DNA of 64,000 bases from Patescibacteria group bacterium (GCA_028865725.1 JAGWJP010000001.1:55377-119376), one strand, 5' to 3'; counted from the stretch's first letter, positions 15,705 to 64,000 are shown. The notes: generated by a model not told the origin, from the sequence alone. Numbers and translations are program-made.

Positions 15705-15881
15705 GTCTACCCAAAACGAATACTCCTGAAGAGCTGTCCATTTTCCCCAATTACGGGCAGAAATGGGCAGCTCGAGTTCCATAATTGGGGACTCCTTTGG
15801 GGGTTTTTCGTTATGGGTAGACAGCTCGGGCTGTCCCTTTTTATTTTCAGCTCGAGACATAGTTCTGTCTACCTATGTCTC
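15705..15881 (+). promoter_or_regulatory. Structured RNA/leader between the divergent RT and mod genes
   Basis: Complementary pairs 15705-15720/15807-15822, 15745-15756/15779-15790, 15765-15776/15825-15836 plus T tract; hairpin 15854-15881 covers the mod ATG. Confidence 0.55.
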
Positions 15882-17581: not shown

Positions 17582-19758
17582 TTACTCTCAAGGATTATCA
17601 AAAACAGGCAGTAGAAAACCTGCATAGGAAAATAGAGAATTCATTACGTTCTCCAGAGAATGAAGTGGTTGTTTTTCAGGCTCCTACTGGTTCTGGAAAG
17701 ACGGTGATGGTATCCGAGCTCCTAAAAGAACTCATAAATAACAGGCAAGATGACAAAAAACTTTCTTTTATTTGGATTTCGGTGAGGATGCTCCATGAAC
17801 AGAGTAAGGAACGCCTAGAAAAATACTATGAGGACGATAGAAGTCTCAAATGTTCCTATTTTGAAGACTTGGAAGACAGAAAAATAGGAGAAAATGAAAT
17901 CCTGTTCGTTAATTGGCATAGCATAAACAAGAAAGACAAAAACACAATAGTTAAAGAAAACGAACAAGAATTTTATCTCGAAAAAGTCCTAGAAAATACC
18001 AGAGAAGATGGGCGAGATATTGTTTTAATTATAGACGAAAGCCACCACACGGCTGGTTCCCAGAAATCGAGGGAACTTATAGAAACCATAAGCCCAAAGG
18101 TGACTCTAGAGGTCTCCGCTACACCGCATTTGGAAGAGAATGCTGCTGAAAAAGAAAAAGTCCACCTTTCGGACGTTAAAGCGGAAGAAATGATTAAGTC
18201 AGAAATATCCGTAAATCCAGAATTTCTTGATATCAAAGTAGGTTCCAAAAGCTCTGATGAAATTGTAATTGAAGAAGCTCTCAAAAAACGGGATGAGCTT
18301 GCGAAGATGTACAAGAAAGAAGGGGTAAACATTAACCCCCTAATGCTTGTACAGCTTCCCGATGCAAAGGCTGGTCTTGCCGACAAAAAAGAGGAGATAT
18401 TAACAATACTTCACAAACAGGGCGTAGAGGACGAGAACATCGCTATTTGGCTATCGGAAGATAAATCTGATACTTTGCCGAACATAGAGAAAAACGATAA
18501 TGATGTGAACGTCCTTATATTCAAACAAGCCATCGCACTTGGATGGGACTGCCCGAGAGCTTCTATCTTGGTTATTTTCAGAGAGTCAAAGAGCTTCACG
18601 TTTACCATCCAAACCATTGGTAGAATAATGCGGATGCCTGAACTGAAATATTATACGAAGGAGCCAGAACTAAATAAAGGGTTTGTATTTACCAACCTAG
18701 CCAATATTGAGGTTACCGAAGATTATGCAAAAGACTATGTAACTCAATATGAAGCAAAACGAGATAAATTATATAAAAACATATCACTACCCTCTATTTA
18801 CTTAAAACGCCAAAGAGAAAGAACCCGTTTATCTGGCGAATTTATTAAATTCTTTCTTAAAATTGCGAAGGAAAAGGATTTAGCAAAAGAAATAAATCCG
18901 AAACCAAAGAAAATAATAAGCCCCATAATTGCTGATGGAAGGATAATAGATATAGATAAATCGGGGGAAATAGAGCACAGGGGTACTCTAGAAATTGGGT
19001 TGAGTGAGAAAGAGCTTGGAAAGAAATTTGATAAATTTATTGCTCAAAATTGCACTCCTTATGCTCCTGCTGATTCTAGCGACAGAATGAAAACAGCTTT
19101 ATATCAGTTCTTTAATCAGGAGTTCAAAATACCGAAATACGAACCCAAGGTTCAACGGATTGTGCTAGGTGAAGAAAACGTGCAGTTATTTGTAAACGTT
19201 ATCAATTTGGCAAAGGAAAAATATAAGAAAGATATAGTTGAAAAGCTTGCCGAGAAACGTGAGCTTATTGAAACAAAGGATTGGGAAGTACCTCTCGTTA
19301 CCAGCTACAACAGCAGGTATCAGATGGAAGAACAACCCTTATCCGTTATGAAACCGTTTTATACGGCAAAACAAAGCGAGCCAGAACGCTTATTTATTGA
19401 ATTTCTCAACAAATCAAAGAACGTAAAGTGGTGGTACAAAAATGGCGAGGCGGAAATCAAGTATTTTGCGGTTTTGCGAGATGACGACCTCGCATTCTAT
19501 CCCGACTTCATTATTCAGCTCAAAGATGGAAGTATCGCTATATTTGATACCAAATCGGGAAGAACGGCAGAAACAAGTGATGCAGCACCCAGAGCCGAAG
19601 CACTACAACGATATATCAAAAAACAAAATAAATCAGGCAAAAATCTATTCGGTGGTATCGCTATTTATGTGAATGGCACATGGCGATACAACGACAAAGA
19701 GAAATATGAGTATAATTCCGATGATTTGTCGGATTGGAAAGTGTTAACTGAATTATGA
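17578..19758 (+). CDS. res: Type III R-M restriction subunit (Res)
   Basis: APTGSGKT, IIDESH, SAT, GWDCP, QTIGRIMR, C-terminal YPDFII...DTK; ATGA overlap with mod. Confidence 0.9.
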   Translation: MITLKDYQKQAVENLHRKIENSLRSPENEVVVFQAPTGSGKTVMVSELLKELINNRQDDKKLSFIWISVRMLHEQSKERLEKYYEDDRSLKCSYFEDLEDRKIGENEILFVNWHSINKKDKNTIVKENEQEFYLEKVLENTREDGRDIVLIIDESHHTAGSQKSRELIETISPKVTLEVSATPHLEENAAEKEKVHLSDVKAEEMIKSEISVNPEFLDIKVGSKSSDEIVIEEALKKRDELAKMYKKEGVNINPLMLVQLPDAKAGLADKKEEILTILHKQGVEDENIAIWLSEDKSDTLPNIEKNDNDVNVLIFKQAIALGWDCPRASILVIFRESKSFTFTIQTIGRIMRMPELKYYTKEPELNKGFVFTNLANIEVTEDYAKDYVTQYEAKRDKLYKNISLPSIYLKRQRERTRLSGEFIKFFLKIAKEKDLAKEINPKPKKIISPIIADGRIIDIDKSGEIEHRGTLEIGLSEKELGKKFDKFIAQNCTPYAPADSSDRMKTALYQFFNQEFKIPKYEPKVQRIVLGEENVQLFVNVINLAKEKYKKDIVEKLAEKRELIETKDWEVPLVTSYNSRYQMEEQPLSVMKPFYTAKQSEPERLFIEFLNKSKNVKWWYKNGEAEIKYFAVLRDDDLAFYPDFIIQLKDGSIAIFDTKSGRTAETSDAAPRAEALQRYIKKQNKSGKNLFGGIAIYVNGTWRYNDKEKYEYNSDDLSDWKVLTEL

Positions 19759-21343: not shown

Positions 21344-22129
21344 ATGTCTAACATCGTAAGCCCAAACAAACTGTCAGTACACAAGCAGCACGAGGTGCTT
21401 CTCAAGCTCGAAGCAGCGGGTCTCAACGACACCCTTGCCCAGAAGCTCGTCGACTCCAAAGACAATGACCTTGCTACGAGAGTGGTACGGCTCATCGAAA
21501 ACGGAGGCATCGAGCCGAGCACGAGTCAGAAGATGGCACGTAGCATCATGGGCAAGAACTTCTTTGGTGTGGAAGAGGCAGTGAAGCACTTCGGTGTCAA
21601 TCCCACGAAGGCTCAGCTCGCTCTTCTCGCCGAGATTCCGTTTACCAAAGCGGAGCTCAAAGAAAAGAAGAACTCCCATATCCTCGTCGCCGTCTTCCCG
21701 CTCTCCATCCTCGACATTCGTGGCAAGATGACCACCAAGGTTTTCTACAACCAGGACTGGTACAACAACCAGGACTGGTACAACAACCAGGACTTCGCCA
21801 AGAATCGTGGAGAAGTGGGATGGTATCTCATTCGCAAGACTCCCGTGGAGAATTCGACGAACAAGACGTGGCAAGAGCAGCAGGCTCTTCTCTCCGACAA
21901 GGATGAGACGCCGACTGCTCGGGTCATGGTCTATGCTATCGTCGGTCATTACCTGGCAACGGGTGAGCGACTTTTTGAGAGAATCTATGTACGCTGTTCG
22001 GACCTCGGTTCGGACGGCCGCCGTGTCAGCGTCGGTTACTTCGCTGCTCGTGGGCTGGGCGTCAGCGACTGCTGGGGTGATGACCGTTTCTCCAGCGTCG
22101 GTCTCGCCTCCGCTCGGAAGTCCAACTGA
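21344..22129 (+). CDS. DGR1 target protein with C-terminal variable region (CLec-fold-like by inference)
   Basis: Its 3' end matches TR1 except at adenines; C-terminus ...SSVGLASARKSN. Confidence 0.92.
   Translation: MSNIVSPNKLSVHKQHEVLLKLEAAGLNDTLAQKLVDSKDNDLATRVVRLIENGGIEPSTSQKMARSIMGKNFFGVEEAVKHFGVNPTKAQLALLAEIPFTKAELKEKKNSHILVAVFPLSILDIRGKMTTKVFYNQDWYNNQDWYNNQDFAKNRGEVGWYLIRKTPVENSTNKTWQEQQALLSDKDETPTARVMVYAIVGHYLATGERLFERIYVRCSDLGSDGRRVSVGYFAARGLGVSDCWGDDRFSSVGLASARKSN
21747..21794 (+). repeat. 18-bp in-frame tandem repeat (2.7 copies; YNNQDW)
   Basis: acaaccaggactggtaca x2 + acaaccaggact. Confidence 0.9.
22004..22117 (+). repeat. DGR1 variable region (VR1)
   Basis: 114-bp match to TR1 with 19 mismatches, all at TR adenines (13 A>G, 3 A>C, 3 A>T). 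Confidence 0.97.
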
Positions 22130-22490
22130 ACCTAGAACCTTGAAGCCTTGAGCTTCTTCGACCCCTTGAGTTTCCCGCAACGATTTGCGTGAGACTCTTG
22201 GGGTTTTTTCTTTTTGAATTCTTTTTTGATACAATATCCTTGTTCTGCTTTTGAAGGTGAGGCTACGGTTTCATCTCGCAGATGTCTCTTCTTTGAGACT
22301 TCGCCAGAATAGCAGTTGTCTACGGATACCGCTAGCGTGCGAATAAAGATGGAGATTGGACTTCTTGCTCATCTTTGGTGGAGATGGTTTCACAACTTGC
22401 TCCCAAATAAAATACAGAAAGGAGAGGATATAGACTCCCGTGAGTAGTAACCCTCGATTTTCAGTGACAGAGAGGAAGATGGGCAAATTT

Positions 22491-22604
22491 CTCGATTCGG
22501 ACGGCAACCGTGTCAACGTCGGTAACTTCGATGCTAATGGGCTGAACGTCAACAACTACTGGGATGATAACCGTAACTCCAACATCGGTCTCGCCTCCGC
22601 TCGG
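22491..22604 (+). ncRNA. DGR1 template repeat (TR1)
   Basis: AAC-rich copy of VR1 with 27 adenines, upstream of avd/RT. Confidence 0.95.
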
Positions 22605-22625
22605 CACTCTTTTCTCTATCACAAC

Positions 22626-22645
22626 AACACCCCTTTCGGGGTGTT
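22626..22645. terminator. Hairpin between TR1 and the avd stop
   Basis: aacacccc-tttc-ggggtgtt. Confidence 0.65.
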
Positions 22646-22996
22646 TTAGTAACTTTTTGTTGCTTTAATCCAACCCCCGAGCATTTTTCCAATTTCATCA
22701 ATATGTTCCTGAAGTATGATATATTTTTTAGCATCAATCGCTTTTACCTCTTTTGATAATCGCACCAATACCCGCAAGAGATTTAATTTCACGCTTGTTT
22801 TTTCAAGTATTGGGAGTTTCTCCATTTTTGTACTCTGGCTTGCGGCGAGAAGAAATTCTACAATATCTAACATTATTGTTTCGCACCGTTGCCATAGAAT
22901 ATAACGGTCTTGTTTTGCAACTGTGTTCCGATAGCTATACAGTGTTTTATACAGCTCATACGTTTTCTTAAAAATTGGGATATCGAATTCGTCCAT
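22646..22996 (-). CDS. avd: DGR accessory variability determinant (Avd, four-helix bundle)
   Basis: 116 aa; DRYIL...EIGKMLGGWIK motif; lies between TR and RT. Confidence 0.88.
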   Translation of the reverse strand: MDEFDIPIFKKTYELYKTLYSYRNTVAKQDRYILWQRCETIMLDIVEFLLAASQSTKMEKLPILEKTSVKLNLLRVLVRLSKEVKAIDAKKYIILQEHIDEIGKMLGGWIKATKSY

Positions 22997-23000
22997 AATT

Positions 23001-24047
23001 ATGAAAGTTTATAAGAATGTTTTTGAAGAAATAATTTCGTTAGAAAATTTGTTTGCTGCATGGGATACCTTCAAGAGCAACAAACAGAAGAAACGAGACG
23101 TACAAGCATTTGAATGGAATCTTGAACATAACATCTTCGAACTCCATAGAGCTTTGAAGTCAGGGCGTTATCGCCATGGTTCCTACACCTCGTTCTTTAT
23201 TCAAGACCCGAAGCAACGTCATATTCATAAGGCATTGGTACAAGATAGGATATTGCATCACGCTCTCTTTACGGTATTGAATCCAATCTTTGAATCCACG
23301 TTTATTGCTCATTCGTTTTCGTGCCGTGTAAACAAGGGAACTCACAAAGGCATAGAAGTTCTCGAAGGAATGATACGAAAAATAACCCACAATGGGGTTC
23401 ATATGGCGTTTGCTTTGAAATGTGATGTCCAAAAGTTCTTTGGGTCGGTTGACCATCAAACTCTGAAGTCTATCCTTGCTCGAAAAATCAAAGATGTTCA
23501 GGCACTGGACTTGTGTAGCAAGATTATCGACAGTTTTGCCACAAACCCGTTGGGGGGGGGGCGTTATAGGAGGGGTTTGCCGATTGGTAACCTCACCTCG
23601 CAATTGTTTGCCAACATCTATCTGAATGAATTTGACCAGTTTATTAAGCATGATTTGAAAGTGAAAAATTACGTACGGTATACCGATGATTTTGTCATTG
23701 TGCACCAGAGTGAGGAAGAACTCAAGAACCTTTTACCGAAGATACGAGAATTTTTGAGCACGAGATTAAAACTTACCTTGCATCCCCGAAAAGTTATCTT
23801 GAATAAAACATCCCAAGGAGTCGATTTCTTGGGGTATGTACTTTTGCTTCATCACAGAGCGTTGCGTACGAAAACAAGGAGGCGGATAGTGAGAAAATTC
23901 AAATTGCGGATGGGGGAGTATAGAAAGGGAGTTATTACAAGGCAGACCCTTGAACAGTCGTTGCAATCCTATCTCGGTGTTCTTTCTCACGCAGATAATT
24001 ATGTGATTTCCGAAGGATTAAAGAATATGCTTTGGTTTTGGAAATAG
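23001..24047 (+). CDS. DGR1 reverse transcriptase
   Basis: QDRILHHA, SCRVNKGTH, GLPIGNLTSQLFAN (DGR-type SQ), YVRYTDD, GVDFLGY. Confidence 0.95.
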   Translation: MKVYKNVFEEIISLENLFAAWDTFKSNKQKKRDVQAFEWNLEHNIFELHRALKSGRYRHGSYTSFFIQDPKQRHIHKALVQDRILHHALFTVLNPIFESTFIAHSFSCRVNKGTHKGIEVLEGMIRKITHNGVHMAFALKCDVQKFFGSVDHQTLKSILARKIKDVQALDLCSKIIDSFATNPLGGGRYRRGLPIGNLTSQLFANIYLNEFDQFIKHDLKVKNYVRYTDDFVIVHQSEEELKNLLPKIREFLSTRLKLTLHPRKVILNKTSQGVDFLGYVLLLHHRALRTKTRRRIVRKFKLRMGEYRKGVITRQTLEQSLQSYLGVLSHADNYVISEGLKNMLWFWK

Positions 24048-52832: not shown

Positions 52833-52904
52833 GCTCCTGTAGTTCAATGGATAGAACATCCCCGTCCTAAGGGGAGGATGCAGGTCCGATTCCTGCTGGG
52901 AGCA
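52833..52904 (+). tRNA. tRNA-Arg(CCT), probable anchor of island 2
   Basis: Acceptor stem gctcctg/tgggagc; anticodon loop gtcctaa. Confidence 0.9.
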
Positions 52905-53054
52905 CACACTAGTGAGAGGTGTTTTGCGACCGTGTTTCTCGGTACTCCTGGGCGACCACGAGAGCCGACCCGACTGTACGGAAACACGTTTCACACACAA
53001 CAATAGCGCAGCATTTTGCCGCGCTCTTGTTGTCTCTCTCCACACATGACCCCG

Positions 53055-54395
53055 CTATACCGTTTCTTTCTGCACCAAACTGATCGTTCTGTCTTTGAGC
53101 GTAAGCCTACTTTTCAAGTTTGAAAGCAGCTCTCGCTTCTCTGTGATTGATCCGTCAGTCAAAATGTAGGCGGCATAGGCTTTCACATCAAAGATATCCG
53201 ATTCGTCATTCTTTTCCTTGGCTTTCCCCAACGCAATCCTCCTGAACTTGTTGTAACGGGTTATCTCATCATTGAATTTTTGTTTCACGCCAAGTTCGTT
53301 TAGATCGAGGGTATTCAAGATAGGGATGATTTGTTCAATGATCTCTTCTTCTTTGATGTAGCCGCACGGACAGTTTACATCTCTCCGCTTCGTACATCCG
53401 TAGTACACGTAACGGTGGGTATTCCCATTCTTCTGGTACTTCCATTTCTCGGAGGCGGTAATCCCTGATCCGCATAATCCACACGTTATCAACTTCGTGA
53501 AGGCGAACTCCTTGTCATTCTTCACCTCGCTCCGAACAAGCTGTTCCCGCGCGCGATCGTACAACTCTTTGGTAATGATAGGAGTATGAGTCCCTGTATA
53601 CCAATTCCCTGATCCTTCGGGGAATTCGAAGACGCCGTAATAGAAGGTTTTCTGGAGAATGAGGAAGATGTTTGAGAGCGAGAGATGTTTTCCATTTCCC
53701 GTTTTGAAATCTACATCGTTCCGAAGCCATTGATACAAGCGGCGGCCGCTCCATCCTTCATGCGCCACCTTCTCAAACATTTGTTTGATGATGGGTGCTC
53801 GTACCGGATCGACAATCACTTCACAGGGCTTATCCTTTCGTTTCTCATTCAGATAACCTGTTGGCGCGACAGAGGGACGAAGTCCTTGTTCGCAGCGTGT
53901 GCGCAATCCGCGTTTTACGTTCTCTGACTTATTGTCATTTTCAAGCTTGGCGGTGGAACACAGAATCATCAGCATGAATTTTTCGCTTGGGCTATTGGAG
54001 AATTTCTGTGAAAAAGTTCGGATTTCGATGAGGAGCTTCTGATCCATGAGATCGACAAGGCTTCCAAGATCGCCCGCATTTCTTGAAAGCCTATCTGGCG
54101 CCCAGGTCAGGATTCCATTAAACTTACCTCCGCGTATATCCTTGAGGAGTTCATTGAACACCTCACGCTGTCCTGTCGCCTTAGCAGAATGGCTCTCCTT
54201 TCTAATCTCTGTGATCTCCAAACCATCCCGCTCGGCAATCTTGATCATTTCTTTGATTTGAGAATCGATGGAAAGCACCTGCTGTTCCTCTGATTCCGTT
54301 GATTTTCTTGCGTACAAACAGTAGGCGACCTTTGTTGGCAGCGGTGGATTGGTTGAGGACGCCGTGCCTGCCGCCCCCTTTAGTTGATTGTTCAT
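53055..54395 (-). CDS. Large serine recombinase
   Basis: YARKSTE, DRLSRN, CGLCGS; start moved to MNNQLKG. Confidence 0.93.
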   Translation of the reverse strand: MNNQLKGAAGTASSTNPPLPTKVAYCLYARKSTESEEQQVLSIDSQIKEMIKIAERDGLEITEIRKESHSAKATGQREVFNELLKDIRGGKFNGILTWAPDRLSRNAGDLGSLVDLMDQKLLIEIRTFSQKFSNSPSEKFMLMILCSTAKLENDNKSENVKRGLRTRCEQGLRPSVAPTGYLNEKRKDKPCEVIVDPVRAPIIKQMFEKVAHEGWSGRRLYQWLRNDVDFKTGNGKHLSLSNIFLILQKTFYYGVFEFPEGSGNWYTGTHTPIITKELYDRAREQLVRSEVKNDKEFAFTKLITCGLCGSGITASEKWKYQKNGNTHRYVYYGCTKRRDVNCPCGYIKEEEIIEQIIPILNTLDLNELGVKQKFNDEITRYNKFRRIALGKAKEKNDESDIFDVKAYAAYILTDGSITEKRELLSNLKSRLTLKDRTISLVQKETV

Positions 54396-54518
54396 ACACC
54401 CAAAGGAATGACGCAAACCACCCTGAGCGTCAAGGGTGGGTGAAATGTGATTATAAAAAATTTTTCGAACGTCCAAGGAATCAAGAAGAACCAAGACAAT
54501 CAAGCACCCAAGGCGAAA

Positions 54519-54638
54519 CTACCGAGAGGGACAGACGCCCAGAGTGGAGTAAGTGCTGCCGCGGGAAACGCTGCGGACGCTGAGACCGCCCGAATCGAAG
54601 CTGCCAACGAGGACGAAGCCGCCGCCGGACGACTGAAC
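54519..54638 (-). repeat. DGR2 variable region A
   Basis: 120 bp vs TR2: 18 mismatches, 17 at TR adenines and one synonymous G>T. Confidence 0.96.
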
Positions 54639-55346
54639 ACCGGTCCAGTCCCATTTATCTTCTAAGAGCGATTCTTTATTGGCGCCATAATATAAAAACG
54701 TATCGTACGCAATTTCTACAGGAGTTCTTCGCTTTACTGAAGCAGGATCAATGTTATTCTGTTTAGCCCAGTCTTTGAGAACCTCTTCTTGTTGGTCCCA
54801 GTTTTTTCCTAATGAATCGGGTAATACCGATCTTGCCACAAGACCCCAACCGAGCTTCGGAGTATCTTCGATAGCGAATTTTTCAGCGTCATACCACCCT
54901 TCACCTTTTTTGCTCACGAACATTTTTTGCTTCTTTTTCTTGGGATTGCCTAATGTGTCGCCACTTGAGAACCTCTCACGTATTTGATCGATAGTTAGCG
55001 GTTTTTCGGTTTTCCCTTCGCCAAGTCTTGATACTCTTAAGACAAGCATCATTCCCAATTTCTTTGCCTGTTCTAGTTCTTCTCGCGTAAAGGGTATTGT
55101 CTCTATTTTTTCTGATTCTTCTGGACTAAGTTCAACGCCATACGTGGCTTTAATGGCTTCGGGTCCTAGAAAGTCTTTACCAAATATTTCTTGGGCCTCG
55201 GTAAATTCAATGGATCCTTCTTTGGCCTCTGGTACAAGATTTTCTTTTTTTGCAATATCCAAAGCTTGCGCTACTTTCTTTTGTGTAGAGGTTTTGTATT
55301 TATTCGGCTCGTATTCGTCGTAGATTTTGTAGGCTTCGAAGGGCAT
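54519..55346 (-). CDS. DGR2 target paralog A
   Basis: VR at the 3' end matches TR2. Confidence 0.93.
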   Translation of the reverse strand: MPFEAYKIYDEYEPNKYKTSTQKKVAQALDIAKKENLVPEAKEGSIEFTEAQEIFGKDFLGPEAIKATYGVELSPEESEKIETIPFTREELEQAKKLGMMLVLRVSRLGEGKTEKPLTIDQIRERFSSGDTLGNPKKKKQKMFVSKKGEGWYDAEKFAIEDTPKLGWGLVARSVLPDSLGKNWDQQEEVLKDWAKQNNIDPASVKRRTPVEIAYDTFLYYGANKESLLEDKWDWTGVQSSGGGFVLVGSFDSGGLSVRSVSRGSTYSTLGVCPSR

Positions 55347-55347
55347 G

Positions 55348-57333
55348 CTATAGGTCTTGTGTATATTTTAGAATAACGTTTTGGACCGCCTGTGGCAATG
55401 TTTTGATGTCAGCAATAACTTCAGCATCGGGTTTGTAGGTTTCTTTAACAGCTCCGCCTGATTCAGTCATACCAAGACCCAACACAATAACTCCTTTGCT
55501 GCGCAATTCACGAAGGATGCCCTGAACCCGAGAGGCATCCTGACTCTCTCCATCAGAAAGTACCACGACCACCTTTCTTCTCGTTTTTTCTCGCAATTCT
55601 TTCTCTTGCTCTTGCGTAATTGATTTCAGGACCGCATCCAAAGAAAGGTAATCAGGAGTGCCTCCTCCTGCTTTATGCATTTTCTTCCAAATACCAACCC
55701 TATCTTTCTCTGACAACTCCGGCGAAAGTTCTTTCAGTTCGGTATCGCCAAAGTCACCAAAGGCCCTTGTCTCTGTTCTTACCTGAAGACCAAGGACTAT
55801 ACCGCTTTCATATTCAGCTTGTTTGATTTCCTTTTGAAAATCAGCGAGCGATTCCAAGAATAGTAGTTTACTCTTCCGGTCCATTTCTAACTTACCGCCT
55901 TCGCTCATAGAACCAGAAAGATCGTTTACGAGAGACATGTCCAACATACCATAACCTTTTTGTTCTTTCTGATGTTTTTCAAGTTCACGAAATGCGTGTG
56001 GCTCTCCGCCCATCCGAGATTCGATGGAAGATTCGACGAGCGTGTCTTCGGATAATTCTTCACCTTCCGTCTCGAGCTGTGGCGAAAACTTCCAACGTTC
56101 TTTGAGGCGTCGAGAAATAATCTGTTTAAATACTTCTCGCAATTCAGCGACGAGCGGAGCAATTTCTGCATATTCCTTACGATACCCAAGAACATCCTCA
56201 GCGTTAACTCCGTGTTCACGAGCCCATTCTTCAAGAATATTCTGTTCTAGCGTTGGTGCTCCGCCTTTCTTGGCGACAATCTCTTCCATCATTTTCTTGA
56301 TCTGTTTCTCTTCTTCGTAGGTGATAGGTTCAGGGTGGCTGTCGTGGTATGTTTTGTATTGTTCTTTAAACTTCTTCTGAGCCGCTTCTTTCGCAGCACG
56401 ATCGCTGGTTTTTTTATCACCCTCGTTACCCGGCTTTTCTTCTTTTCCTTTGCCTTCTTGCGGTGTTTCCCTTTTTCTCTGCCACCATTTTCTTTTTTCC
56501 TGACCCGAACCTTGACCCTGTTGCGGCTTATCGGAAACCGTAGTGTCTGTTGGTGATACTTGCCCCTGATCTTTTTTACCATTCTTCTTTTCTTCCTCTA
56601 GGTCTTTCTCGTAAAGTTCCCGGTAGATAGGTTCAACGATCGTTCGCATAATGCGAAAACGATCTTTGGGATCAATGGTTGGTGTCGTGACAAGATCTAA
56701 AATATCTATTTTTTCAGAACCAAAACTTCGCAAGGTGTCCAACGCAGTTTGTGCATCTAGCCCAAGTTGTACTGCCTCACCGGACACCATCATCTGCCGG
56801 ATAAACCCATAGGTAAATTGGACATGGGAAGCTTTATCGGTGTAATCGGTTTGTGGAAACATCTTTTCTCGATAGAGAGTTTCACGTGTTTCCTTGAGAA
56901 ACGGAAGCTCAGCAACGATACGCCTGTTGCCTAACACGTCCTCAAAAATATTGTATAACAGATGGAGATGTTCTTTTGCACTATAACGCTTAGCCTCTTT
57001 TAAAATGAGCTCCGGATCGCGCAGGAGCTCGCCGTAGTGGGCCATGAGTTCATGTGTCGTGGCAAAGAGGGTTTCCTGAAGATTATACCCGCGTTCGATA
57101 AAGAAGTTGGGATCGTAGATAAGTTTTCGATTTTGAAAATCAAACGCCCAGCCGCCATTGCCCCGTTCTAAGGTAATGTCGCCCTTTAATCCATAGGCGG
57201 ACAAAAGCTCTGTCTCCCGATTCAAAAACTCCTCAACCGCAGGGGCATCAATTTCACGTTCTTTTTTAGGAACCTCCTGTTTTGGTGTATTACGAGGAGG
57301 TTCCATCCGATTTGTAGGGAATGATTCTTGCAT
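55348..57333 (-). CDS. vWA-domain protein with N-terminal HExxxH metallopeptidase-like domain
   Basis: THELMAHY, YNIFED; charged linker; MIDAS DLSGSMS, GGTPD, LSDGES. Confidence 0.85.
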   Translation of the reverse strand: MQESFPTNRMEPPRNTPKQEVPKKEREIDAPAVEEFLNRETELLSAYGLKGDITLERGNGGWAFDFQNRKLIYDPNFFIERGYNLQETLFATTHELMAHYGELLRDPELILKEAKRYSAKEHLHLLYNIFEDVLGNRRIVAELPFLKETRETLYREKMFPQTDYTDKASHVQFTYGFIRQMMVSGEAVQLGLDAQTALDTLRSFGSEKIDILDLVTTPTIDPKDRFRIMRTIVEPIYRELYEKDLEEEKKNGKKDQGQVSPTDTTVSDKPQQGQGSGQEKRKWWQRKRETPQEGKGKEEKPGNEGDKKTSDRAAKEAAQKKFKEQYKTYHDSHPEPITYEEEKQIKKMMEEIVAKKGGAPTLEQNILEEWAREHGVNAEDVLGYRKEYAEIAPLVAELREVFKQIISRRLKERWKFSPQLETEGEELSEDTLVESSIESRMGGEPHAFRELEKHQKEQKGYGMLDMSLVNDLSGSMSEGGKLEMDRKSKLLFLESLADFQKEIKQAEYESGIVLGLQVRTETRAFGDFGDTELKELSPELSEKDRVGIWKKMHKAGGGTPDYLSLDAVLKSITQEQEKELREKTRRKVVVVLSDGESQDASRVQGILRELRSKGVIVLGLGMTESGGAVKETYKPDAEVIADIKTLPQAVQNVILKYTQDL

Positions 57334-57410
57334 TGAGATAGTTATAAAAAATTTTTTCGAACGTCCAAGGAATCAAAAAGAATCAAGAGATCCAAGCACC
57401 CAAGGGGAAA

Positions 57411-57530
57411 CTACCGAGAGGGACAGACGCCCAGATCGGAGCTCGTGCCGTCGCGGGTATCGCTGTAGACGTTGAGACCGTCCGAATCGAAGCGGCCAAC
57501 GAAGACGAAGCTGCCGCCGGACGACTGAAC
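57411..57530 (-). repeat. DGR2 variable region B
   Basis: 120 bp vs TR2: 12 mismatches, all at TR adenines. Confidence 0.96.
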
Positions 57531-58229
57531 GGCAGACCAGTCATAAGAACTTTCGAGGAGAGATTCTTTGTTCGCACCATAATACAAAAGAGTATCGTAG
57601 ATGATCTCAACGGGAGTCCTACGTTTTACTGAAGCAGGATCAATATTGTTTTGTTTGGCCCAACTCTTGAGAACCTCTTCTTGCTGATCCCAGTTTTTAC
57701 TGCGTGATTCCTGTAAGACTTCTTTCATAACTAAACTCCACCCGAGTGAAGGCGTAACCTGTGTAGCAAACGATTCATTATTATACCAATCCTGATCGTA
57801 AAATATCTTTGTTTTTTTCTTGGTGGGATTACCCAACTTGTCTCCCGCCTTAAAAACTCCCCGCACATTGTTAATGCTAAAAGGTTTTGCAGTTTTATCC
57901 TTACCGATTCTTGGTATGCGTAAGACGAGCATCATGCCAAGTTGTTTTGCCTGTTCTAATTCTTCTCGAGTAAATGGGATGTTTTCGATACGTCCAAGTT
58001 CATCAGGAGAGAGTTCAATCCCGAACGTTGCTTTGACAGCTTCAGGACCCAAAAAATCCTTACCTAATAGTTCTTGGGCCTCATTGAACTCAATAGTTAC
58101 TTCCTTTGCCTCAGGCACAAGATTTTCTTTCTTGGCAATATCTAAAGCCTGAGCCACCTTCTTTTGCGTGGAAGTTTTGTACTTGTTGGGCTCGTATTCG
58201 TCGTAAATTTTGTAGGCTTCAAAAGGCAT
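57411..58229 (-). CDS. DGR2 target paralog B
   Basis: VR at the 3' end matches TR2. Confidence 0.93.
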   Translation of the reverse strand: MPFEAYKIYDEYEPNKYKTSTQKKVAQALDIAKKENLVPEAKEVTIEFNEAQELLGKDFLGPEAVKATFGIELSPDELGRIENIPFTREELEQAKQLGMMLVLRIPRIGKDKTAKPFSINNVRGVFKAGDKLGNPTKKKTKIFYDQDWYNNESFATQVTPSLGWSLVMKEVLQESRSKNWDQQEEVLKSWAKQNNIDPASVKRRTPVEIIYDTLLYYGANKESLLESSYDWSAVQSSGGSFVFVGRFDSDGLNVYSDTRDGTSSDLGVCPSR

Positions 58230-58258
58230 GATTCGATACGCGTATCAACGAATGGTCA

Positions 58259-59938
58259 TTATTCTTTACCCTGCCACTGACGGACTGTTTTAGAAGATAA
58301 TCCTTGGATATCAAATTCTTCTGGATTAGTGTCCTTGAAAAATTTATTCGCCATAAATACTTTAATCATATTTTCACGATCCTTGGCGGCTCGACCGCTG
58401 ATTTCTGCCTTTCTGAAAAATTCTCGGAGCACAACATTTTCTAATGGTTCAGCAAAACCAGAGGCCTTCCAGGCTTTCATGATTTCAATTTGATCTTTTA
58501 AGGTAATAACGAGTTCTTTAAAGGCAAGTTTATCGCTACGCGCTAATGAATCTTCACCACCTTCTCGCATGCTCAAAGTAAAATCTTCCTGAATCTTACG
58601 GCACGCGCCGACAAAACGCTTTAACGCATCGAGTTTTTGTGGTGCTTCTTGTTCGTCCCACGCAATGGCGCCATTTCGATCTGCAAGTACACCCGCAAGA
58701 ATAGTAAGCGTCTCAGGAGCAATATATTCACCTTCTTTGTTCTTTTTGCCGAGATCTAGATAATGAATTTCTTTCGCCCCCGCACCGCCGATAAAACGGC
58801 GAAGCGTGGCAACATCAAGTTCGTAGCGTTGCTTATAGCGTTCTGATTTAAGATTAGCGGTGGCAAAAATAACAAATCCGGGGGCAACCTTGATTGATTC
58901 TCCTGTTGAAGGATGCTTCCATGAACTGCCCACACGTAACTGAAAAATTTCGTTCAAAATGCCTTGAAATTCATGAGGCATAAGGTTCATTTCATCCAAA
59001 ATAACGGGACGCCCTTCCTTCATGCTTTTCACAAGTTCTGAATACAGAAAATCAGTAGCGCCATCTTTGAGGGTAACACGTCCCATGATTTGAGATTCTT
59101 TGATTTGTTCGGAAATGGAGATTGGCGCAACTTCGTAACCCAGAAATCTATGAGAAATGTATTTAGCAAGCTGAGTCTTGCCAGAACCTGTTTCGCCTTG
59201 AAACAAAATAGGCGCGCCGCGCAATAAATCAGGTAAGACGTCTTGAATAAGCTTGGTGCGCGATTCTGTCTCGGCAAAACTATAACGCTCTAAATCTTGT
59301 TGCGTGCGCCGAACCTCTCTCCGGCGTAGCATATCAATTGATGCCGGATCTAATTCAAAAGCAGTTACATTGTTTTGTAGTTCCTCTCTCCGATTTGTGA
59401 GATCGGTAAGCTTGGTGCGTTCAATCGGGCCCGGTGCGCGTCCTATTTTTTCATAGAGCACGCGAAGTTTTTGTTCACTATTCGTGACAGCGCTAAGTTC
59501 TTTTTGGAGATGTTCATAGGTTAGAACGTTGGCTAACGTATCCTTCATGCCTTCAAAGCGCTCTTTATACGTCTCCATTACTTTGGAGTTACTGCCCAGT
59601 TCTTGAATACGCGCATCATATTCAGCAAGAACATTCTCGGAAAATTCTGCCATTTCAGGATCAATTTTAAGTGCGTCAAATTGAGCCGCAACCGCATCAT
59701 CGCCTTGAGCCTTCAATTCTTCTCGTTCGGTTTTTGTAAGACCGCCCCACGATTCACGGACGTGCTTTGATGCTTCGACTCTTGCGGCGGAGAGGTCCAT
59801 AAGCTCTTGGACTCGTGTTTCAAGTTGCTCAGGAGAAAGTTTTTGCTTCTCTTTTGTACTATCAACACCTTTTTCCTCAATAACGCGCTCCGGAGTGGTA
59901 GGTAGATTAGGCATTGATGGAAATTGTTCTTTGGGCAT
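58259..59938 (-). CDS. MoxR/dynein-related AAA+ ATPase with N-terminal coiled coil
   Basis: Walker A GETGSGKT, Walker B VILDEMN, sensor IFATAN, LDVATLRRF. Confidence 0.88.
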   Translation of the reverse strand: MPKEQFPSMPNLPTTPERVIEEKGVDSTKEKQKLSPEQLETRVQELMDLSAARVEASKHVRESWGGLTKTEREELKAQGDDAVAAQFDALKIDPEMAEFSENVLAEYDARIQELGSNSKVMETYKERFEGMKDTLANVLTYEHLQKELSAVTNSEQKLRVLYEKIGRAPGPIERTKLTDLTNRREELQNNVTAFELDPASIDMLRRREVRRTQQDLERYSFAETESRTKLIQDVLPDLLRGAPILFQGETGSGKTQLAKYISHRFLGYEVAPISISEQIKESQIMGRVTLKDGATDFLYSELVKSMKEGRPVILDEMNLMPHEFQGILNEIFQLRVGSSWKHPSTGESIKVAPGFVIFATANLKSERYKQRYELDVATLRRFIGGAGAKEIHYLDLGKKNKEGEYIAPETLTILAGVLADRNGAIAWDEQEAPQKLDALKRFVGACRKIQEDFTLSMREGGEDSLARSDKLAFKELVITLKDQIEIMKAWKASGFAEPLENVVLREFFRKAEISGRAAKDRENMIKVFMANKFFKDTNPEEFDIQGLSSKTVRQWQGKE

Positions 59939-60044
59939 ATTGTAAGTGTTATACGGTTATGAATTGATTGTACCAGTTTCAAAAATTTTTTCGAACGTCC
60001 AAGGAATCAAGAAGAACCAAGACAATCAAGCACCCAAGGGGAAA

Positions 60045-60164
60045 CTACCGAGAGGGACAGACGCCCAGACTGGAGCTCGTGCCGTCGCGGGTATCGTCGC
60101 TGACGTCGAGACCGCCCGAATCGAAGCTGCCAACGTCGACGAAGCTGCCGTCGGACGACTGAAC
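60045..60164 (-). repeat. DGR2 variable region C
   Basis: 120 bp vs TR2: 11 mismatches, all A>G. Confidence 0.96.
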
Positions 60165-60857
60165 GGCAGACCAATCCCAGGTAGATTCTAATAATGATTC
60201 TTTGTTTGCACCATAATAGAGGAGAGTGTCATAGATGATTTCTACGGGGGTTCTGCGTTTAATAGTATTCGGATCTATATTATTGTCTTTTGCCCACTTT
60301 TTAAGAACCTCCTCTTGTTGATCCCAATTTTTATCCAATGATTCCTGGAGCACGTCTTTTGTTACCAGGCTCCATTTGAGTTGCGGTGTCGGTTTTGTTG
60401 CAAATTCTTGGTCGTTATACCAATCCTGTGATTTCCAAAACAAATTCGTTTTCTTCTTTGCGGGATCTCCCAATGCATCATCGGACCCGAATTGTTCTCG
60501 CAATTGTTTGATGGTAAGCAGGTTTCCATCCTTATCATGCGATACCCGCAACACAAGCATCATCTTAAGATGTTTTGCTTGTTCAAGCTCTTCTCGAGTA
60601 AACGGGATGTTTTCAATCTCCTGCAATTCTTCAGGGGTAAGTTCGACGCCATATGTCGTTTTAACCGATTCGGGTCCCAGAAAATCTTTGCCGAATAGTT
60701 CTCTGGCTTCATTGAATTCGATGTTTGTTTCTTTAGCTTCAGGTATGAGATTCTCTTTTTTGGCAATGTCTAAAGCCTGCTCAACCTTTTTCTGAGTAGA
60801 AGTCTTGTATTTATTCGGTTCGTATTCGTCGTAAATTTTGTAAGCTTCAAAAGGCAT
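60045..60857 (-). CDS. DGR2 target paralog C
   Basis: VR at the 3' end matches TR2. Confidence 0.93.
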   Translation of the reverse strand: MPFEAYKIYDEYEPNKYKTSTQKKVEQALDIAKKENLIPEAKETNIEFNEARELFGKDFLGPESVKTTYGVELTPEELQEIENIPFTREELEQAKHLKMMLVLRVSHDKDGNLLTIKQLREQFGSDDALGDPAKKKTNLFWKSQDWYNDQEFATKPTPQLKWSLVTKDVLQESLDKNWDQQEEVLKKWAKDNNIDPNTIKRRTPVEIIYDTLLYYGANKESLLESTWDWSAVQSSDGSFVDVGSFDSGGLDVSDDTRDGTSSSLGVCPSR

Positions 60858-61180
60858 AGCTATTTCTTTAACTATACAGAATATGAAACATTTTTGCCAA
60901 CTTTCGCAATCATAAAACGTATGCCATACTAATGGCGAGCTTTGTTACTAGAGATTAGGCTGCATAGGTTTAATCTTACGGATCTCCTTTTTGCATATTC
61001 CGCCGGAGTTTCTGTGGCATATCGGTTATAGAAAGCGCGCGGTGGCAAAACGTAAGAACAACGAAACTACGTGTTTTGTTTCAATGTGGATGCCTTGTGC
61101 ACGGGCTGCCACTACGTAAAATTCAGGAGATATTTCCTTGTTGAAATTATCCGGTGATGGGGAAGGAACAAAACACACAG

Positions 61181-61300
61181 GTTCAGTCGTCCGACGGCAA
61201 CTTCGTCAACGTTGGCAACTTCGATTCGGACGGTCTCAACGTCAACAACGATACCCGCGACAACACGAACTCCAATCTGGGCGTCTGTCCCTCTCGGTAG
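61181..61300 (+). ncRNA. DGR2 template repeat (TR2)
   Basis: AAC-rich, gttcagtcgtccgac...ccctctcggtag; inverted relative to its three VRs. Confidence 0.95.
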
Positions 61301-61314
61301 TTTTGTTAATCTGG

Positions 61315-61345
61315 ATGAAGAGGCCTTCTTAGAAGGCCTCTTCAT
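61315..61345. terminator. Perfect 14-bp hairpin between TR2 and the avd stop
   Basis: atgaagaggccttc-tta-gaaggcctcttcat. Confidence 0.7.
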
Positions 61346-61719
61346 TACTCTCGCGTTGATCGGATCCATCCGCCAAGCATTTTGCCAATTTCCTGGATAT
61401 GGTTTTGGCAAACAACGTATCGCTTATCGCTCAGCGCATCAACGTCGTTTGTTAATCGGATAAAAACTTTTAACATATCAAGCTTGCCGCTTGCAGATTC
61501 TAGTATGGGTAATTTGCGATCTTTTGTGATTTGGGCGGCCAACATAATATCCTTCAAGATTTGTAAAATATATTCTTCGCAATATTGGCCTAACGTATAG
61601 CGATCTTTCTTTGGGAAATCGAGCTCGAAAATGTAGAACTCTTTGAAAAAATCATACGTTTTTTTGAAGATAGGGATATCTAAGCTAAATTTTCCATCAT
61701 AGCCATGAGAGTTTTCCAT
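61345..61719 (-). CDS. avd: DGR2 Avd
   Basis: DIPIFKKTY...KDRYTLG...EIGKMLGGWIR, homologous to 22646..22996; start moved to MENSHG. Confidence 0.87.
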   Translation of the reverse strand: MENSHGYDGKFSLDIPIFKKTYDFFKEFYIFELDFPKKDRYTLGQYCEEYILQILKDIMLAAQITKDRKLPILESASGKLDMLKVFIRLTNDVDALSDKRYVVCQNHIQEIGKMLGGWIRSTRE

Positions 61720-62757
61720 AATATTTTTGATCAAATTATTAATATAGAGAATTTGGTTACTTCGTGGAGAGAATTTCGGATTGGCAAAAAACATCGCCGC
61801 GATACACTTATTTTTGAATATCGGTTGGAGGATAATCTCTGGTATCTTCGGAGGGTGCTTGAGGATAGAACGTACAAGCATTCCGGATACTTCTCTTTCT
61901 TTGTACAAGACCCGAAGGTCCGGCATATCCATAAAGCATCGGTTCGGGATCGAGTGTTACACCACGCGATTGTGAAACATCTTAACCCAATTTTCGAACC
62001 AACATTTATTTATGATTCCTATTCTTGCAGAATTAATAAAGGCACTCATCGAGGAATCAAAGCTTTTACTAAACATGCTCGGCAAGTCAGCAAAAACTGG
62101 ACAAGCACATGCTGGGTACTGAAATGCGACATCAGAAAATTTTTTGCCACCATCGATCACAATGTTTTGCTCGATATACTCTTTAGACATATTGCCGATC
62201 CTGACACGCGATGGTTACTACGCGAGGTTGTTTCAAGTTTTCGTTCGGAGTTTACGGTTGATCCGGAAAACCCCAAAGGAGTGCCTATCGGCAATCTTAC
62301 CTCGCAACTTTTTGCCAACGTGTACCTGAACGAGCTCGACCAATTTGTAAAGCATCAGTTGAAAGAAAAACACTACATTCGTTATGCCGATGATTTTGTG
62401 ATACTACACCCCCAAAGAGATCACTGTTTAGATATTGTGAAACGTATCACTACATTCCTTAAAGAATTTCTCAAGCTTGAATTGCATCCCAATAAAGTTA
62501 CTGTTAGAAAATTTAGCCAAGGCGTAGATTTTTTGGGTTACGTTTCTTTTCCTCATTTTGTGATACCGAGAAATAAAACCAGGAACAGAGTATTCAATAA
62601 AATACATGACAATATTTTGCTCTATAAACGTGGCCAATGGACGCTCGAGTCACTAAATCAAAGCATTCATTCATATCTTGGAATTTTATCTCACAGTAAT
62701 TCATTTGATCTCCAACAGGAGCTTGAAAATCAGATATTTTTTTGGCTGACAGAATAA
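61705..62757 (+). CDS. DGR2 reverse transcriptase
   Basis: RDRVLHHA, GVPIGNLTSQLFAN, YIRYADD, GVDFLGY. Confidence 0.95.
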   Translation: MRVFHNIFDQIINIENLVTSWREFRIGKKHRRDTLIFEYRLEDNLWYLRRVLEDRTYKHSGYFSFFVQDPKVRHIHKASVRDRVLHHAIVKHLNPIFEPTFIYDSYSCRINKGTHRGIKAFTKHARQVSKNWTSTCWVLKCDIRKFFATIDHNVLLDILFRHIADPDTRWLLREVVSSFRSEFTVDPENPKGVPIGNLTSQLFANVYLNELDQFVKHQLKEKHYIRYADDFVILHPQRDHCLDIVKRITTFLKEFLKLELHPNKVTVRKFSQGVDFLGYVSFPHFVIPRNKTRNRVFNKIHDNILLYKRGQWTLESLNQSIHSYLGILSHSNSFDLQQELENQIFFWLTE

Positions 62758-62819
62758 GCAATCATCTCTACATTATCCTTCGGATTTCCTGGTACATTGT
62801 TGACTAATACGCATGTAGC

Positions 62820-63932
62820 CTATAGCTCCGGAAAGATTGCTCTCACCTTCGCTTCGTGTTCCTCAATGGTTTTCTGATCTGGCTCAACGGTAGCGATATC
62901 AATCGTCACATCCTCCTCGAACGGCATCGTCTCTTTCTCATGAAAGAGGCGGTTCTTTGTGGTATTCGATTCCTCGTCTATGTTTGTCGCAGTTCGGATC
63001 GCCTTGTTGAGCTGCTCCATGTTTTCCCGCAAGGCAGCGAGTCTCTCGGAGACATGCTCCGCCATATCTGTCTCGTAGATGGGGGAAAGCTTTTTGAACA
63101 CAGTCTCGAAACCAAGGAGAATGGCATAGCCATTGATGAGCAGTTGTCGCCGTTCGGCAAATATTTTCGCTATTTCCTCATCTTTGAATCTGAGAAACAA
63201 TGTCCCGTTTTTTCTGAATTCTTCAAACAATGTCTGTGCATAGAGAAGGTTTGAGAGCATCGTCACACTCATACCATATCGACTGAAGGCGCCTGGTTCT
63301 CGGTTTCCTGCAAGGCTGCAAATCAAGAGCTCTTGGTCGAGATGCTCGTCCGTGTGATCGGGGTCATTTTCAGCGTACACGAGGCCAAGGTTCGGGTCGT
63401 AAGTGTCGACCCGCTTTTTGAAATCCTTGACGAATGCATATGCTCCGCCAAAGGCATAGAGACTTGTTCCGGTGATCACTGTATTGTTAAAGGTTTCGAA
63501 TGCTCTTTTTTCATCAAGTTCGCCTTTGAGGCTCGGCTCGATATTCAGGTTTTCGAAAATCATGGCAGCCGAGGCGAACTCACTATCGTAGAGACCCTTG
63601 CTCCAAAGTTTCTCTTTTCTGGTTTCTTCCTCAGTACGCTCCCTCAAGGCAAGCTCTCCAGAGGCGACATGCTTGCGTAACGTTTTTCTTGCTTTCACCT
63701 TGCTTTGGAACCACCGTTTCAAAAGTTCAGCATCATCGCTTGCCGCAAGCGGTGTGTATTCTTCGATGAGCCCATCGTCAAGCCAGCGTCGGCATGCCTC
63801 GCGAAGCATGGCCTTGATGGTCATAGTATGCTCTTTGGCATAGTGCTGCATCGCCTTCGTCACGGCATCGTGGATGTCATCGTCCTCCTCACGCGCTTCT
63901 TGATCCTTGGCTAGCGGATCGCCCGTAATCAC
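62820..63932 (-). CDS. Hypothetical protein, probably truncated by the window edge
   Basis: 370-aa open frame with no recognisable motif. Confidence 0.55.
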   Translation of the reverse strand: MITGDPLAKDQEAREEDDDIHDAVTKAMQHYAKEHTMTIKAMLREACRRWLDDGLIEEYTPLAASDDAELLKRWFQSKVKARKTLRKHVASGELALRERTEEETRKEKLWSKGLYDSEFASAAMIFENLNIEPSLKGELDEKRAFETFNNTVITGTSLYAFGGAYAFVKDFKKRVDTYDPNLGLVYAENDPDHTDEHLDQELLICSLAGNREPGAFSRYGMSVTMLSNLLYAQTLFEEFRKNGTLFLRFKDEEIAKIFAERRQLLINGYAILLGFETVFKKLSPIYETDMAEHVSERLAALRENMEQLNKAIRTATNIDEESNTTKNRLFHEKETMPFEEDVTIDIATVEPDQKTIEEHEAKVRAIFPEL

Positions 63933-64000
63933 GACCCCATGGCTTTTGAGAAAATACCGGGCTACCTCAAGGAGGGGTATGCAGGCGAAATAGTGGAAGA

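What the first reader, a model, noticed from the sequence alone, without database searches (positions are those of the whole stretch)
54519..62757. DGR diversifying three paralogs interleaved with a MoxR-type AAA+ ATPase and a HExxxH-vWA protein
Seen: the minus-strand run is targetC - AAA+ - targetB - vWA - targetA, with a 1-bp gap between vWA and targetA and a 29-bp gap between the ATPase and targetB. It diverges from TR2/avd/RT. All three VRs differ from the single TR2 almost only at adenines (17/18, 12/12, 11/11) and differ from each other. None of the five proteins shows a signal peptide or TM helix. Established: DGRs mutate TR adenines into ligand-binding C-termini, and MoxR ATPases work with vWA partners to remodel substrates. 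Inference: the targets are interchangeable hypervariable specificity subunits of a cytoplasmic AAA+/vWA(-peptidase) machine, for example an adaptive anti-phage or anti-element sensor-effector. Multi-target DGRs are known, but I do not recognise this operon design.
Basis: partly seen in the sequence, partly recalled or inferred. Interest (0 to 1): 0.92.

Follow-up and report, generated by a model that had tools for sequence, protein, structure and literature searches.

The report
Hypermutated binders around an ATPase-peptidase pair
In an ultra-small (CPR) bacterium, a mutation-generating retroelement rewrites the tips of three sister binding proteins that share a fixed "handle" and sit beside a motor ATPase and a protease-like partner; the parts and similar pairings are already published, but I did not find this unfused, handle-bearing layout in the papers I could search.

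Summary
The three VRs differ from one TR at 11/11, 12/12 and 17/18 adenines, and gene order and gaps are as stated. One correction: avd lies on the minus strand, the usual CPR layout TR-(avd)-RT.

The link to the ATPase and vWA gene is not accidental. All 24 loci of this vWA clade carry a target gene. Among 24 well-flanked vWA-family clusters, 22 have the ATPase and 16 a VR or target. Homologous ATPases are often fused to the target domain. The targets' first 40 residues are under strong purifying selection (54 synonymous against 4 amino-acid changes). DGR-less relatives carry paralog arrays with one N-terminal tag on LRR, WD40, WG-repeat or target domains. The vWA N-terminal domain is a HExxH/HExxxH peptidase or a transglutaminase-like domain.

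Best reading: a cytoplasmic MoxR-vWA-peptidase machine with swappable tagged sensors.

DGR+MoxR+vWA (other phyla) and CPR AAA-CLec fusions are published. This scan already found this cassette on other DNA several times. Verdict: new variant of a known kind.

The parts
60045..60857 (-). DGR target C (270 aa): 40-aa conserved N-terminal tag, body, C-terminal VR
60042..60164 (-). VR-C (11 of 11 mismatches at TR adenines, all A>G)
59981..60041 (-). about 60-nt element after the VR, shared by the three targets and absent after TR (phased CTTG repeats, then an A/T tract); probable homing (IMH-side) element, inferred
58259..59938 (-). MoxR/midasin-like AAA_5 ATPase with an N-terminal helical region; Walker A 248-255, Walker B 313-316, sensor-1 N362, RRF 380-382; not fused to a target
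57411..58229 (-). DGR target B (272 aa), 29 nt after the ATPase
57408..57530 (-). VR-B (12 of 12 at adenines)
57347..57407 (-). post-VR element, copy B
55348..57333 (-). peptidase-like/vWA protein: H94-E95-H99 with N128/D132, low-complexity linker, MIDAS D471-x-S473-x-S475, T559, D594
54519..55346 (-). DGR target A (275 aa), 1 nt after the vWA stop
54516..54638 (-). VR-A (17 of 18 at adenines)
54455..54515 (-). post-VR element, copy A
61181..61303 (+). template repeat TR2: 27 adenines, 9 AAY codons, about 1e15 possible protein variants per target
61315..61345 (+). 14-bp hairpin between TR and the avd stop (0 of 200 shuffles fold as well)
61345..61719 (-). avd (NCBIfam NF033474, 85.8 bits, over the cut-off of 80), antisense to TR and RT
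61705..62757 (+). DGR reverse transcriptase, open 350-aa frame
53055..54503 (-). large serine recombinase directly downstream of target A (context: island)
52833..52905 (+). tRNA-Arg(CCT) at the left edge of the island; no att repeat found

Best explanation
This is a three-part intracellular machine of Patescibacteria: a MoxR/midasin-type ATPase ring, a vWA partner carrying an N-terminal peptidase-like domain, and exchangeable specificity subunits. SHOWN: each subunit here has a nearly invariant 40-residue N-terminal tag and a C-terminal tip rewritten by the DGR; the three genes travel together; in the other main branch of the family the variable domain is fused to the ATPase; in DGR-less relatives one tag heads arrays of LRR, WD40, WG-repeat or target-family domains. 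INFERRED: the tag docks the subunit on the machine, much as an F-box does. It docks either on the ATPase, where the fused form places the domain, or in the MIDAS site through a conserved glutamate. The variable tip captures a foreign protein. The ring then pulls on the vWA protein, as NorQ does on NorD, and this unleashes the peptidase or feeds it the captured protein. The most likely purpose is recognising and destroying, or responding to, proteins of phages or other invaders, with the DGR supplying anticipatory specificity.
For: Target gene within 6 kb on the same strand in 24 of 24 loci (10 of 10 clusters at 90% identity) of this vWA clade. Among 24 clusters of the wider vWA family with at least 3 kb on both flanks: ATPase 22, RT 15, VR 15, VR or target 16. 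18 of all 69 clusters have the VR at the C-terminus of the ATPase itself. P0002 is this ATPase type fused to this target family. 14 of the 33 proteins scanned (32 long target homologs plus P0083) carry AAA_5. Tag codons 1-40 among the three paralogs: 54 synonymous against 4 amino-acid changes, 97% identity, against 65-73% in the body. Tagged paralog arrays with WD40, WG and LRR domains lie beside the pair in L031, L071 and L036. The vWA N-terminal domain is HExxH-type in 46 and HExxxH-type in 11 of 69 clusters, and transglutaminase-like in 5 by motif plus 2 by Pfam. P0083 has a transglutaminase domain on a vWA part 65% identical to this protein. Nearest solved ATPases are midasin and NorQ. No hydrophobic segments. 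MoxR-vWA mechanism from PMC7159879 section 8 and the abstract of PMC13036017.
Against: The target domain is also used without the pair: DGR1 in this window has a 25-30% identical target with no AAA or vWA gene beside it. The target family occurs in 45 of 401 sampled genomes and the vWA family in 24 of 401, with only 10 shared. The genome behind L008 has target-vWA-target and no match to the ATPase (completeness not given). 4 of the 24 informative clusters (L070, L080, L128, L134) show no clear third component. The tag shows no significant likeness to the fusion linker. No defence-system model matches. HExxxH departs from the canonical zincin spacing, so catalysis in this clade is unproven.
Confidence: 0.55

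Rival explanations
1. Same machine, aimed outward at the host cell. The tag is an export or processing signal, and the ATPase/vWA/peptidase acts as a loading chaperone that unfolds or clips the variable proteins for display on, or delivery from, the epibiont surface.
For: N-terminal tags on mixed binding folds also fit secretion substrates (inference). CPR DGRs are proposed to serve host attachment (PMC10221324 passage; PMC10907252 passage). One structural neighbour of the Atlas model of target B is an F-box-bearing protein cluster commonest in Chlamydiota (TM 0.66; a lead only).
Against: No signal peptide or TM segment. No secretion genes are conserved in the loci. 18 of 69 clusters have the variable domain welded to the ATPase protein itself, which suits a cytoplasmic complex better.
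Confidence: 0.2
2. A function of a mobile element: the cassette serves the island or prophage that carries it, for example in excluding rival elements or in particle assembly, and not the cell.
For: It sits next to tRNA-Arg and a serine recombinase, with ParB/methyltransferase-like and HTH plus HExxH regulator-like genes beyond the window (the latter labels are from my reading of the sequences). Similar neighbours occur in L004, L011, L089 and L151. Atlas neighbours of the vWA N-terminal domain are mostly viral clusters. It occurs at 85% identity in genomes labelled as different CPR groups.
Against: Viral-contig scans found 0 vWA relatives and 1 ATPase locus, and that locus looks the same as L007. 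Many loci lie among housekeeping genes (L006, L008, L030, L103, L125). No att repeat was found.
Confidence: 0.15
3. An ordinary multi-target DGR whose targets multiplied by duplication around an unrelated AAA/vWA pair.
For: The target family is common on its own. Recombination between the target copies reshuffles the cassette (L006, L008).
Against: Fusions of ATPase and target, linkage in 24 of 24 clade loci, the constrained tag, and the same layout with other binding folds.
Confidence: 0.07

Closest known systems
CPR DGR targets with an AAA ATPase fused to the variable domain (Paul et al. 2017 as cited in PMC10907252; 'UVR4'/midasin-like and category g1 targets in Wu et al., PMC5758913)
   Same: Same phylum and same AAA_5/midasin-like ATPase type. 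The same target family occurs in such fusions (P0002). Same B3 cassette order TR-(avd)-RT.
   Different: Here the ATPase is unfused and belongs to a separate branch (13 unfused or short-tailed rows against 29 fused, SH-aLRT 97, midpoint root). There are three free tagged targets. The passages I read do not mention the peptidase-vWA partner.
MoxR-vWA 'ternary' conflict systems with DGRs (VMAP, iSTAND, FtsH and beta-propeller types; Kaur et al. 2020, PMC7159879; Dore et al. 2024, PMC10907252)
   Same: MoxR ATPase plus MIDAS vWA plus DGR-diversified binding domains, proposed as sensor-effector systems.
   Different: No VMAP, iSTAND, FtsH or vWA-fused beta-propeller was identified. The variable domain is free or on the ATPase and was never seen on the vWA protein in these loci. 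The peptidase sits N-terminal on the vWA protein. The hosts are unicellular CPR, not multicellular bacteria.
NorQ-NorD, CbbQ-CbbO and midasin/Rea1 (MoxR-vWA remodelling machines)
   Same: Best solved-structure matches of the ATPase are midasin (E 4e-38) and NorQ (5e-8). Intact MIDAS residues. Distant vWA homologs hit CobT_C.
   Different: Those machines have fixed substrates, no hypervariable subunits and no swappable peptidase (CbbQO detail recalled).
Esr pathways of Actinomycetota (PMC13622651)
   Same: An experimentally studied MoxR-vWA pair coupled to variable sensors in a conflict setting (passages).
   Different: It uses surface beta-propeller sensors, a kinase/FHA output, no DGR, and is on the host side of the CPR interaction.

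Membership tests
Diversity-generating retroelement | TR/VR pairs with adenine-specific mismatches | tested here: met
   40 of 41 mismatches at TR adenines
Diversity-generating retroelement | RT and Avd genes intact | tested here: met
   RVT_1 and NF033474 over their cut-offs, open frames
Diversity-generating retroelement | VR at the C-terminus with a shared 3' homing element that differs from TR | tested here: met
   The VRs end at the stop codon; an element of about 60 nt follows all three VRs and not TR
Diversity-generating retroelement | DNA hairpin downstream of the VR as in BPP-1 (recalled feature) | tested here: not met
   z-scores 0.12, 1.12 and -1.29 for the three post-VR regions
Diversity-generating retroelement | ongoing VR variation in populations | tested here: inconclusive
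   Only contigs at depth about 4-12 from 4 runs, no VR differences listed. Past activity is shown: 2 synonymous changes in 85 identical VR codons against about half in the body, and the TRs differ between loci at non-A sites
CLec-fold DGR variable protein | C-type lectin/FGE-sulfatase fold | tested here: inconclusive
   No Pfam CLec or FGE family among the 25 shown of 29 families hit by 75 homologs, and no significant PDB sequence match. hhalign against an 8-row FGE alignment: E 0.057, probability 1% (reversed control E 0.8). No structure of my own could be predicted
MoxR/midasin-clade AAA+ | AAA_5 match, Walker A/B, sensor 1, arginine finger | tested here: met
MoxR/midasin-clade AAA+ | helix-2 insert and hexameric ring | not testable with these tools
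MIDAS vWA co-chaperone | DxSxS...T...D motif | tested here: met
   D471, S473, S475 and D594 invariant in 15 divergent homologs; T559 invariant in the 11 rows of A5
Zincin metallopeptidase | HExxH motif plus a third ligand | tested here: inconclusive
   This clade has HExxxH. H94, E95, H99, N128 and D132 are invariant when aligned with HExxH homologs. Only a weak PDB hit to proabylysin, E 0.22. Activity untested
VMAP/iSTAND/FtsH/beta-propeller ternary systems (Kaur 2020) | third component is VMAP, iSTAND or FtsH, or a beta-propeller fused to vWA | tested here: not met
   The operon holds only the ATPase, the vWA protein and three 270-aa targets, none with such a Pfam, NCBIfam or PADLOC match. 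The authors' own VMAP profile was not available; definitions
CPR AAA-CLec fused DGR target | variable domain fused to the ATPase | tested here: not met
   The ATPase ends at 559 aa. The closest homologs at 46% identity or more are all at most 612 aa (which searched 307-979 aa)
Known anti-phage system | match to curated defence models or protection in assay | tested here: not met
   Only partial generic AAA hits in PADLOC and NCBIfam; no assay possible

The most novel reading that the evidence does not exclude
Patescibacteria run a phylum-wide, F-box-like adaptive proteolysis or immune system. One MoxR-vWA-peptidase engine is loaded with many exchangeable receptors through a locus-specific N-terminal tag. 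The receptor repertoire is made either by DGR hypermutation (this locus, three receptors of about 1e15 possible tips each) or by paralog arrays of LRR, WD40, WG-repeat and lectin-like domains. That would be a protein-level adaptive defence in cells usually said to lack CRISPR (recalled), and a programmable bind-and-destroy tool.
Probability: 0.35. Interest if true: 0.85.

Novelty: new variant of a known kind. Interest (0 to 1): 0.55.

Why it matters
What CPR DGR targets do is an open question: most lack membrane anchors or known domains (PMC8144416 passage). This locus ties them to a defined engine, a MoxR ATPase and a MIDAS protein with an exchangeable peptidase. Because the targets are small separate proteins with a 40-residue constant tag, the model can be tested directly by pull-down, tag swap and active-site mutants. 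If tag docking and ligand-triggered proteolysis hold, this is an adaptive, protein-recognising system in a phylum with few known defences, and a possible scaffold for programmable binders or degraders.

Tried and rejected
The fold and the binding partner are therefore untested, and this is no evidence either way.

2) Idea that the tag is the split-off linker of the fused ATPases: rejected. Best scores were reached by 64-124 of 500 shuffles, hhalign probability 0.4%. None of 34 tags tested beat shuffles. The ATPase tree also puts unfused forms on their own branch, not nested among the fusions (quick method, long branches, 8 of 49 rows dropped as redundant or poorly delimited, window row added).

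3) CLec membership by Pfam, PDB sequence search and hhalign: inconclusive.

4) Population variation: no RNA holder listed. Contigs of 4 runs (at most 3 samples, 2 studies, two of them possible sources) showed no VR variants but cannot show absence.

5) Promoter scan: 12 sites against 15.6 expected, not informative.

6) No att repeat of the tRNA-Arg region within 27 kb.

7) Viral-contig scans: 0 vWA and 1 ATPase locus.

8) Avd survey (109 of 401 genomes over the cut-off) only shows that co-occurrence at genome level means little.

9) The TR/VR calls in L032 look like similarity between LRR-like paralogs and were not counted as VRs.

10) My local avd profile was built from a wrong frame and was not used for any count; the gene was checked.

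11) Paul et al. 2017 (PMC5436926) is not held; I know it only through citing papers.
Full report
1. Observation. TR 61181-61303(+) differs from VR-C, VR-B and VR-A at 11, 12 and 18 of 123 positions, of which 11, 12 and 17 are TR adenines. About 9 of these 41 would be expected on A by chance. The RT (350 aa) and avd are intact. One correction: avd is on the minus strand, antisense to TR and RT. Wu et al. call this order B3, TR-(avd)-RT, and give it for 90% of CPR DGRs (PMC5758913 section 22). The genome is 1.36 Mb, and its closest cassette relatives are labelled Yanofskybacteria, Nomurabacteria, Saccharibacteria and Patescibacteria, so I infer a Patescibacteria (CPR) host. No other target of this TR was found in the assembly.

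2. Has the DGR acted on all three genes? Yes, in the past. Among the three paralogs, about half of the amino-acid-identical codons in the body differ synonymously (109 of 210 and 91 of 183), but only 2 of 85 do so in the VR. The TRs of related loci differ from each other at non-adenine sites, while VRs match the TR of their own locus with few or no non-adenine mismatches. Present activity could not be judged: only low-depth contigs were available.

3. The proteins. The ATPase has AAA_5, complete Walker A/B, sensor 1 and an arginine finger; its best solved matches are midasin and NorQ. The vWA protein has a complete MIDAS and an N-terminal domain with H94-E95-H99 and N128/D132, invariant across 11 divergent homologs, most of which have canonical HExxH spacing. 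The targets have no library match. They belong to a large family (2,836 representatives at 50% identity) and are homologous to another VR-bearing domain found on fused ATPases (hhalign 96%). Their CLec fold is likely from DGR precedent but was not shown here (E 0.057). None of the five proteins has a hydrophobic segment.

4. Is the neighbourhood conserved? I collected loci by vWA similarity only and examined 98. I dropped 7 with no vWA ORF by my profile, 6 with weak matches (E above 1e-9) and L144, leaving 84 loci in 69 clusters at 90% identity. In the window's own clade, 24 of 24 loci (10 of 10 clusters) have a target gene within 6 kb. Layouts vary: T-AAA-T-vWA-T (L004-L007), AAA-T-vWA-T (L011, L087, L089), T-vWA-T (L008), and an intact five-gene run that has lost most of its RT (L006). 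Among the 24 clusters with at least 3 kb on both sides, 22 have the ATPase, 15 an RT, 15 a VR and 16 a VR or target-family gene. Of the other 8, four have a third component by inspection (L029, L038, L069, L108) and four show none (L070, L080, L128, L134). These loci are related, so the counts are not independent events. In 18 of 69 clusters the VR is at the C-terminus of the ATPase. P0002 and several others fuse this ATPase type to this very target family. Against an exclusive partnership: the target family is in 45 of 401 sampled genomes, the vWA family in 24, and both in 10; DGR1 of this window uses a homologous target with no such neighbours; and the genome behind L008 gave no ATPase match.

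5. Two features that point to mechanism. (a) The tag. Codons 1-40 of the three targets show 62 identical, 54 synonymous and 4 non-synonymous pairs, so the protein and not the DNA is conserved. The same tag heads scaffolds only 40-55% identical to target B. Relatives without a DGR use the same grammar. L031 has one tag on target-family and WD40 domains, L071 one tag on WG-repeat, GXGXG and other domains, L036 a similar head on LRRs, and L029 and L073 have arrays with their own tags. The ATPases of L029, L031, L032, L036, L038 and L120 group with the window's unfused clade, apart from the 29 fused ones (SH-aLRT 97, quick tree, midpoint root, long branches). This locus is thus the DGR-driven member of an unfused, tag-based branch, not simply a broken fusion. 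The tag is not detectably related to the fusion linker. (b) The exchangeable peptidase. The vWA N-terminal domain is HExxH-type in 46 and HExxxH-type in 11 of 69 clusters (one search printed 44 and 13; two HExxH-H cases were miscounted by my pattern). It is transglutaminase-like in 5 by motif and 2 more by Pfam, and P0083 shows this swap inside the window's clade. Two unrelated protease-type folds in one slot argue that cutting is the output (inference).

6. Mechanism. From established MoxR-vWA biochemistry (PMC7159879 section 8; PMC13036017 abstract), the vWA MIDAS captures a peptide and the ring remodels the vWA protein and what it holds. I infer that tagged subunits dock on this engine, that their variable tips capture foreign proteins, and that ATP-driven remodelling releases or feeds the peptidase. 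My confidence is about 0.75 that the targets are subunits of the machine and about 0.55 for the whole cytoplasmic sensor-peptidase reading. Rivals are an export or processing role toward the host cell (0.2), a function of the surrounding island (0.15) and chance gene order (0.07). 'Interchangeable' fits the tag, but scaffolds tend to group by slot across genomes (bootstrap 80-86, not firm), so the three may be partly specialised.

7. What is known. DGRs linked to MoxR-vWA systems are published for cyanobacteria, gammaproteobacteria and other multicellular bacteria (PMC7159879 passages; PMC10907252 passages). [quoted passage not shown] 2017, which I could not read). Wu et al. note midasin-like CPR targets and multi-target cassettes (passages). 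Seven literature searches and passages of PMC8144416, PMC13622651, PMC10221324 and PMC11661182 turned up no description of the CPR peptidase-vWA partner, the tags or the unfused three-target layout. I read no supplements, and most subscription papers are not in the library, so this is not proof of absence. Within this scan the system has been reported many times on other DNA, including this layout. My reading, including the tags, was written down before I saw those notes.

8. Verdict. Real, conserved and well suited to testing, but a new variant of a known kind: a CPR-type MoxR-vWA-peptidase module with DGR-diversified, tagged specificity subunits. Interest 0.55.

Noticed in passing
window 21344-24047 (+): A second complete DGR: target 21344-22129, VR 22004-22122, TR 22491-22609, avd 22646-22996, RT 23001-24047, all on the plus strand. 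Its target is 25-30% identical to the three targets, with a different N-terminus and no AAA/vWA neighbours. Its RT is 48% identical to RT2.
   Followed up: partly
window 54455-54515, 57347-57407, 59981-60041 (-); also after VR1 near 22123: The sequence after the VRs is a T/G-rich tract with phased CTTG or TTG repeats and no stable hairpin. It is alike among the targets of one locus and differs between loci. Mean CTTG count was 2.4 after VR calls against 1.0 after TRs in 50 cases. It may be a CPR-type homing signal.
   Followed up: partly
window 61315-61345 and 61705-61719: A 14-bp hairpin lies between TR and the avd stop, and the avd and RT start regions overlap head to head by 15 nt, so the TR-RT transcript would be antisense to avd.
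   Followed up: partly
window 52833-64000 and the contig beyond it (to about window position 68200): Island-like context: tRNA-Arg, serine recombinase, the cassette, a 610-aa unknown ORF, two methyltransferase-like or ParB-like genes and an HTH plus HExxH regulator-like pair (labels from my reading of the sequences). The genome has at least three more serine recombinase homologs.
   Followed up: partly
L031 (G146:C2:1-15073), L071 (G301:C3:2154-19763), L029, L073: DGR-less arrays of 4-10 paralogs with one shared N-terminal tag on different folds (target family, WD40, WG repeat, GXGXG). Several tags look like UVR-type helical hairpins (resemblance recalled, not tested).
   Followed up: partly
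L033, L034, L035, L069, L070, L076, L098; P0083: vWA proteins in which a transglutaminase-like domain replaces the HExxH domain.
   Followed up: partly
L006:5600-6500; L008:9087-12818: L006 keeps the five-gene run but only a 54-codon RT remnant. L008 has lost the ATPase and one target, as expected from recombination between target copies.
   Followed up: partly
target B, Atlas structure search: A structural neighbour (TM 0.66) is an F-box-bearing cluster commonest in Chlamydiota, suggesting that this domain serves as a substrate-recognition module elsewhere (predicted models, a lead only).
   Followed up: no
window 15875-19758 (+): A methyltransferase-like and helicase-like gene pair resembling a type III restriction-modification system lies just upstream of DGR1 (read from the ORF sequences, not scanned).
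   Followed up: no
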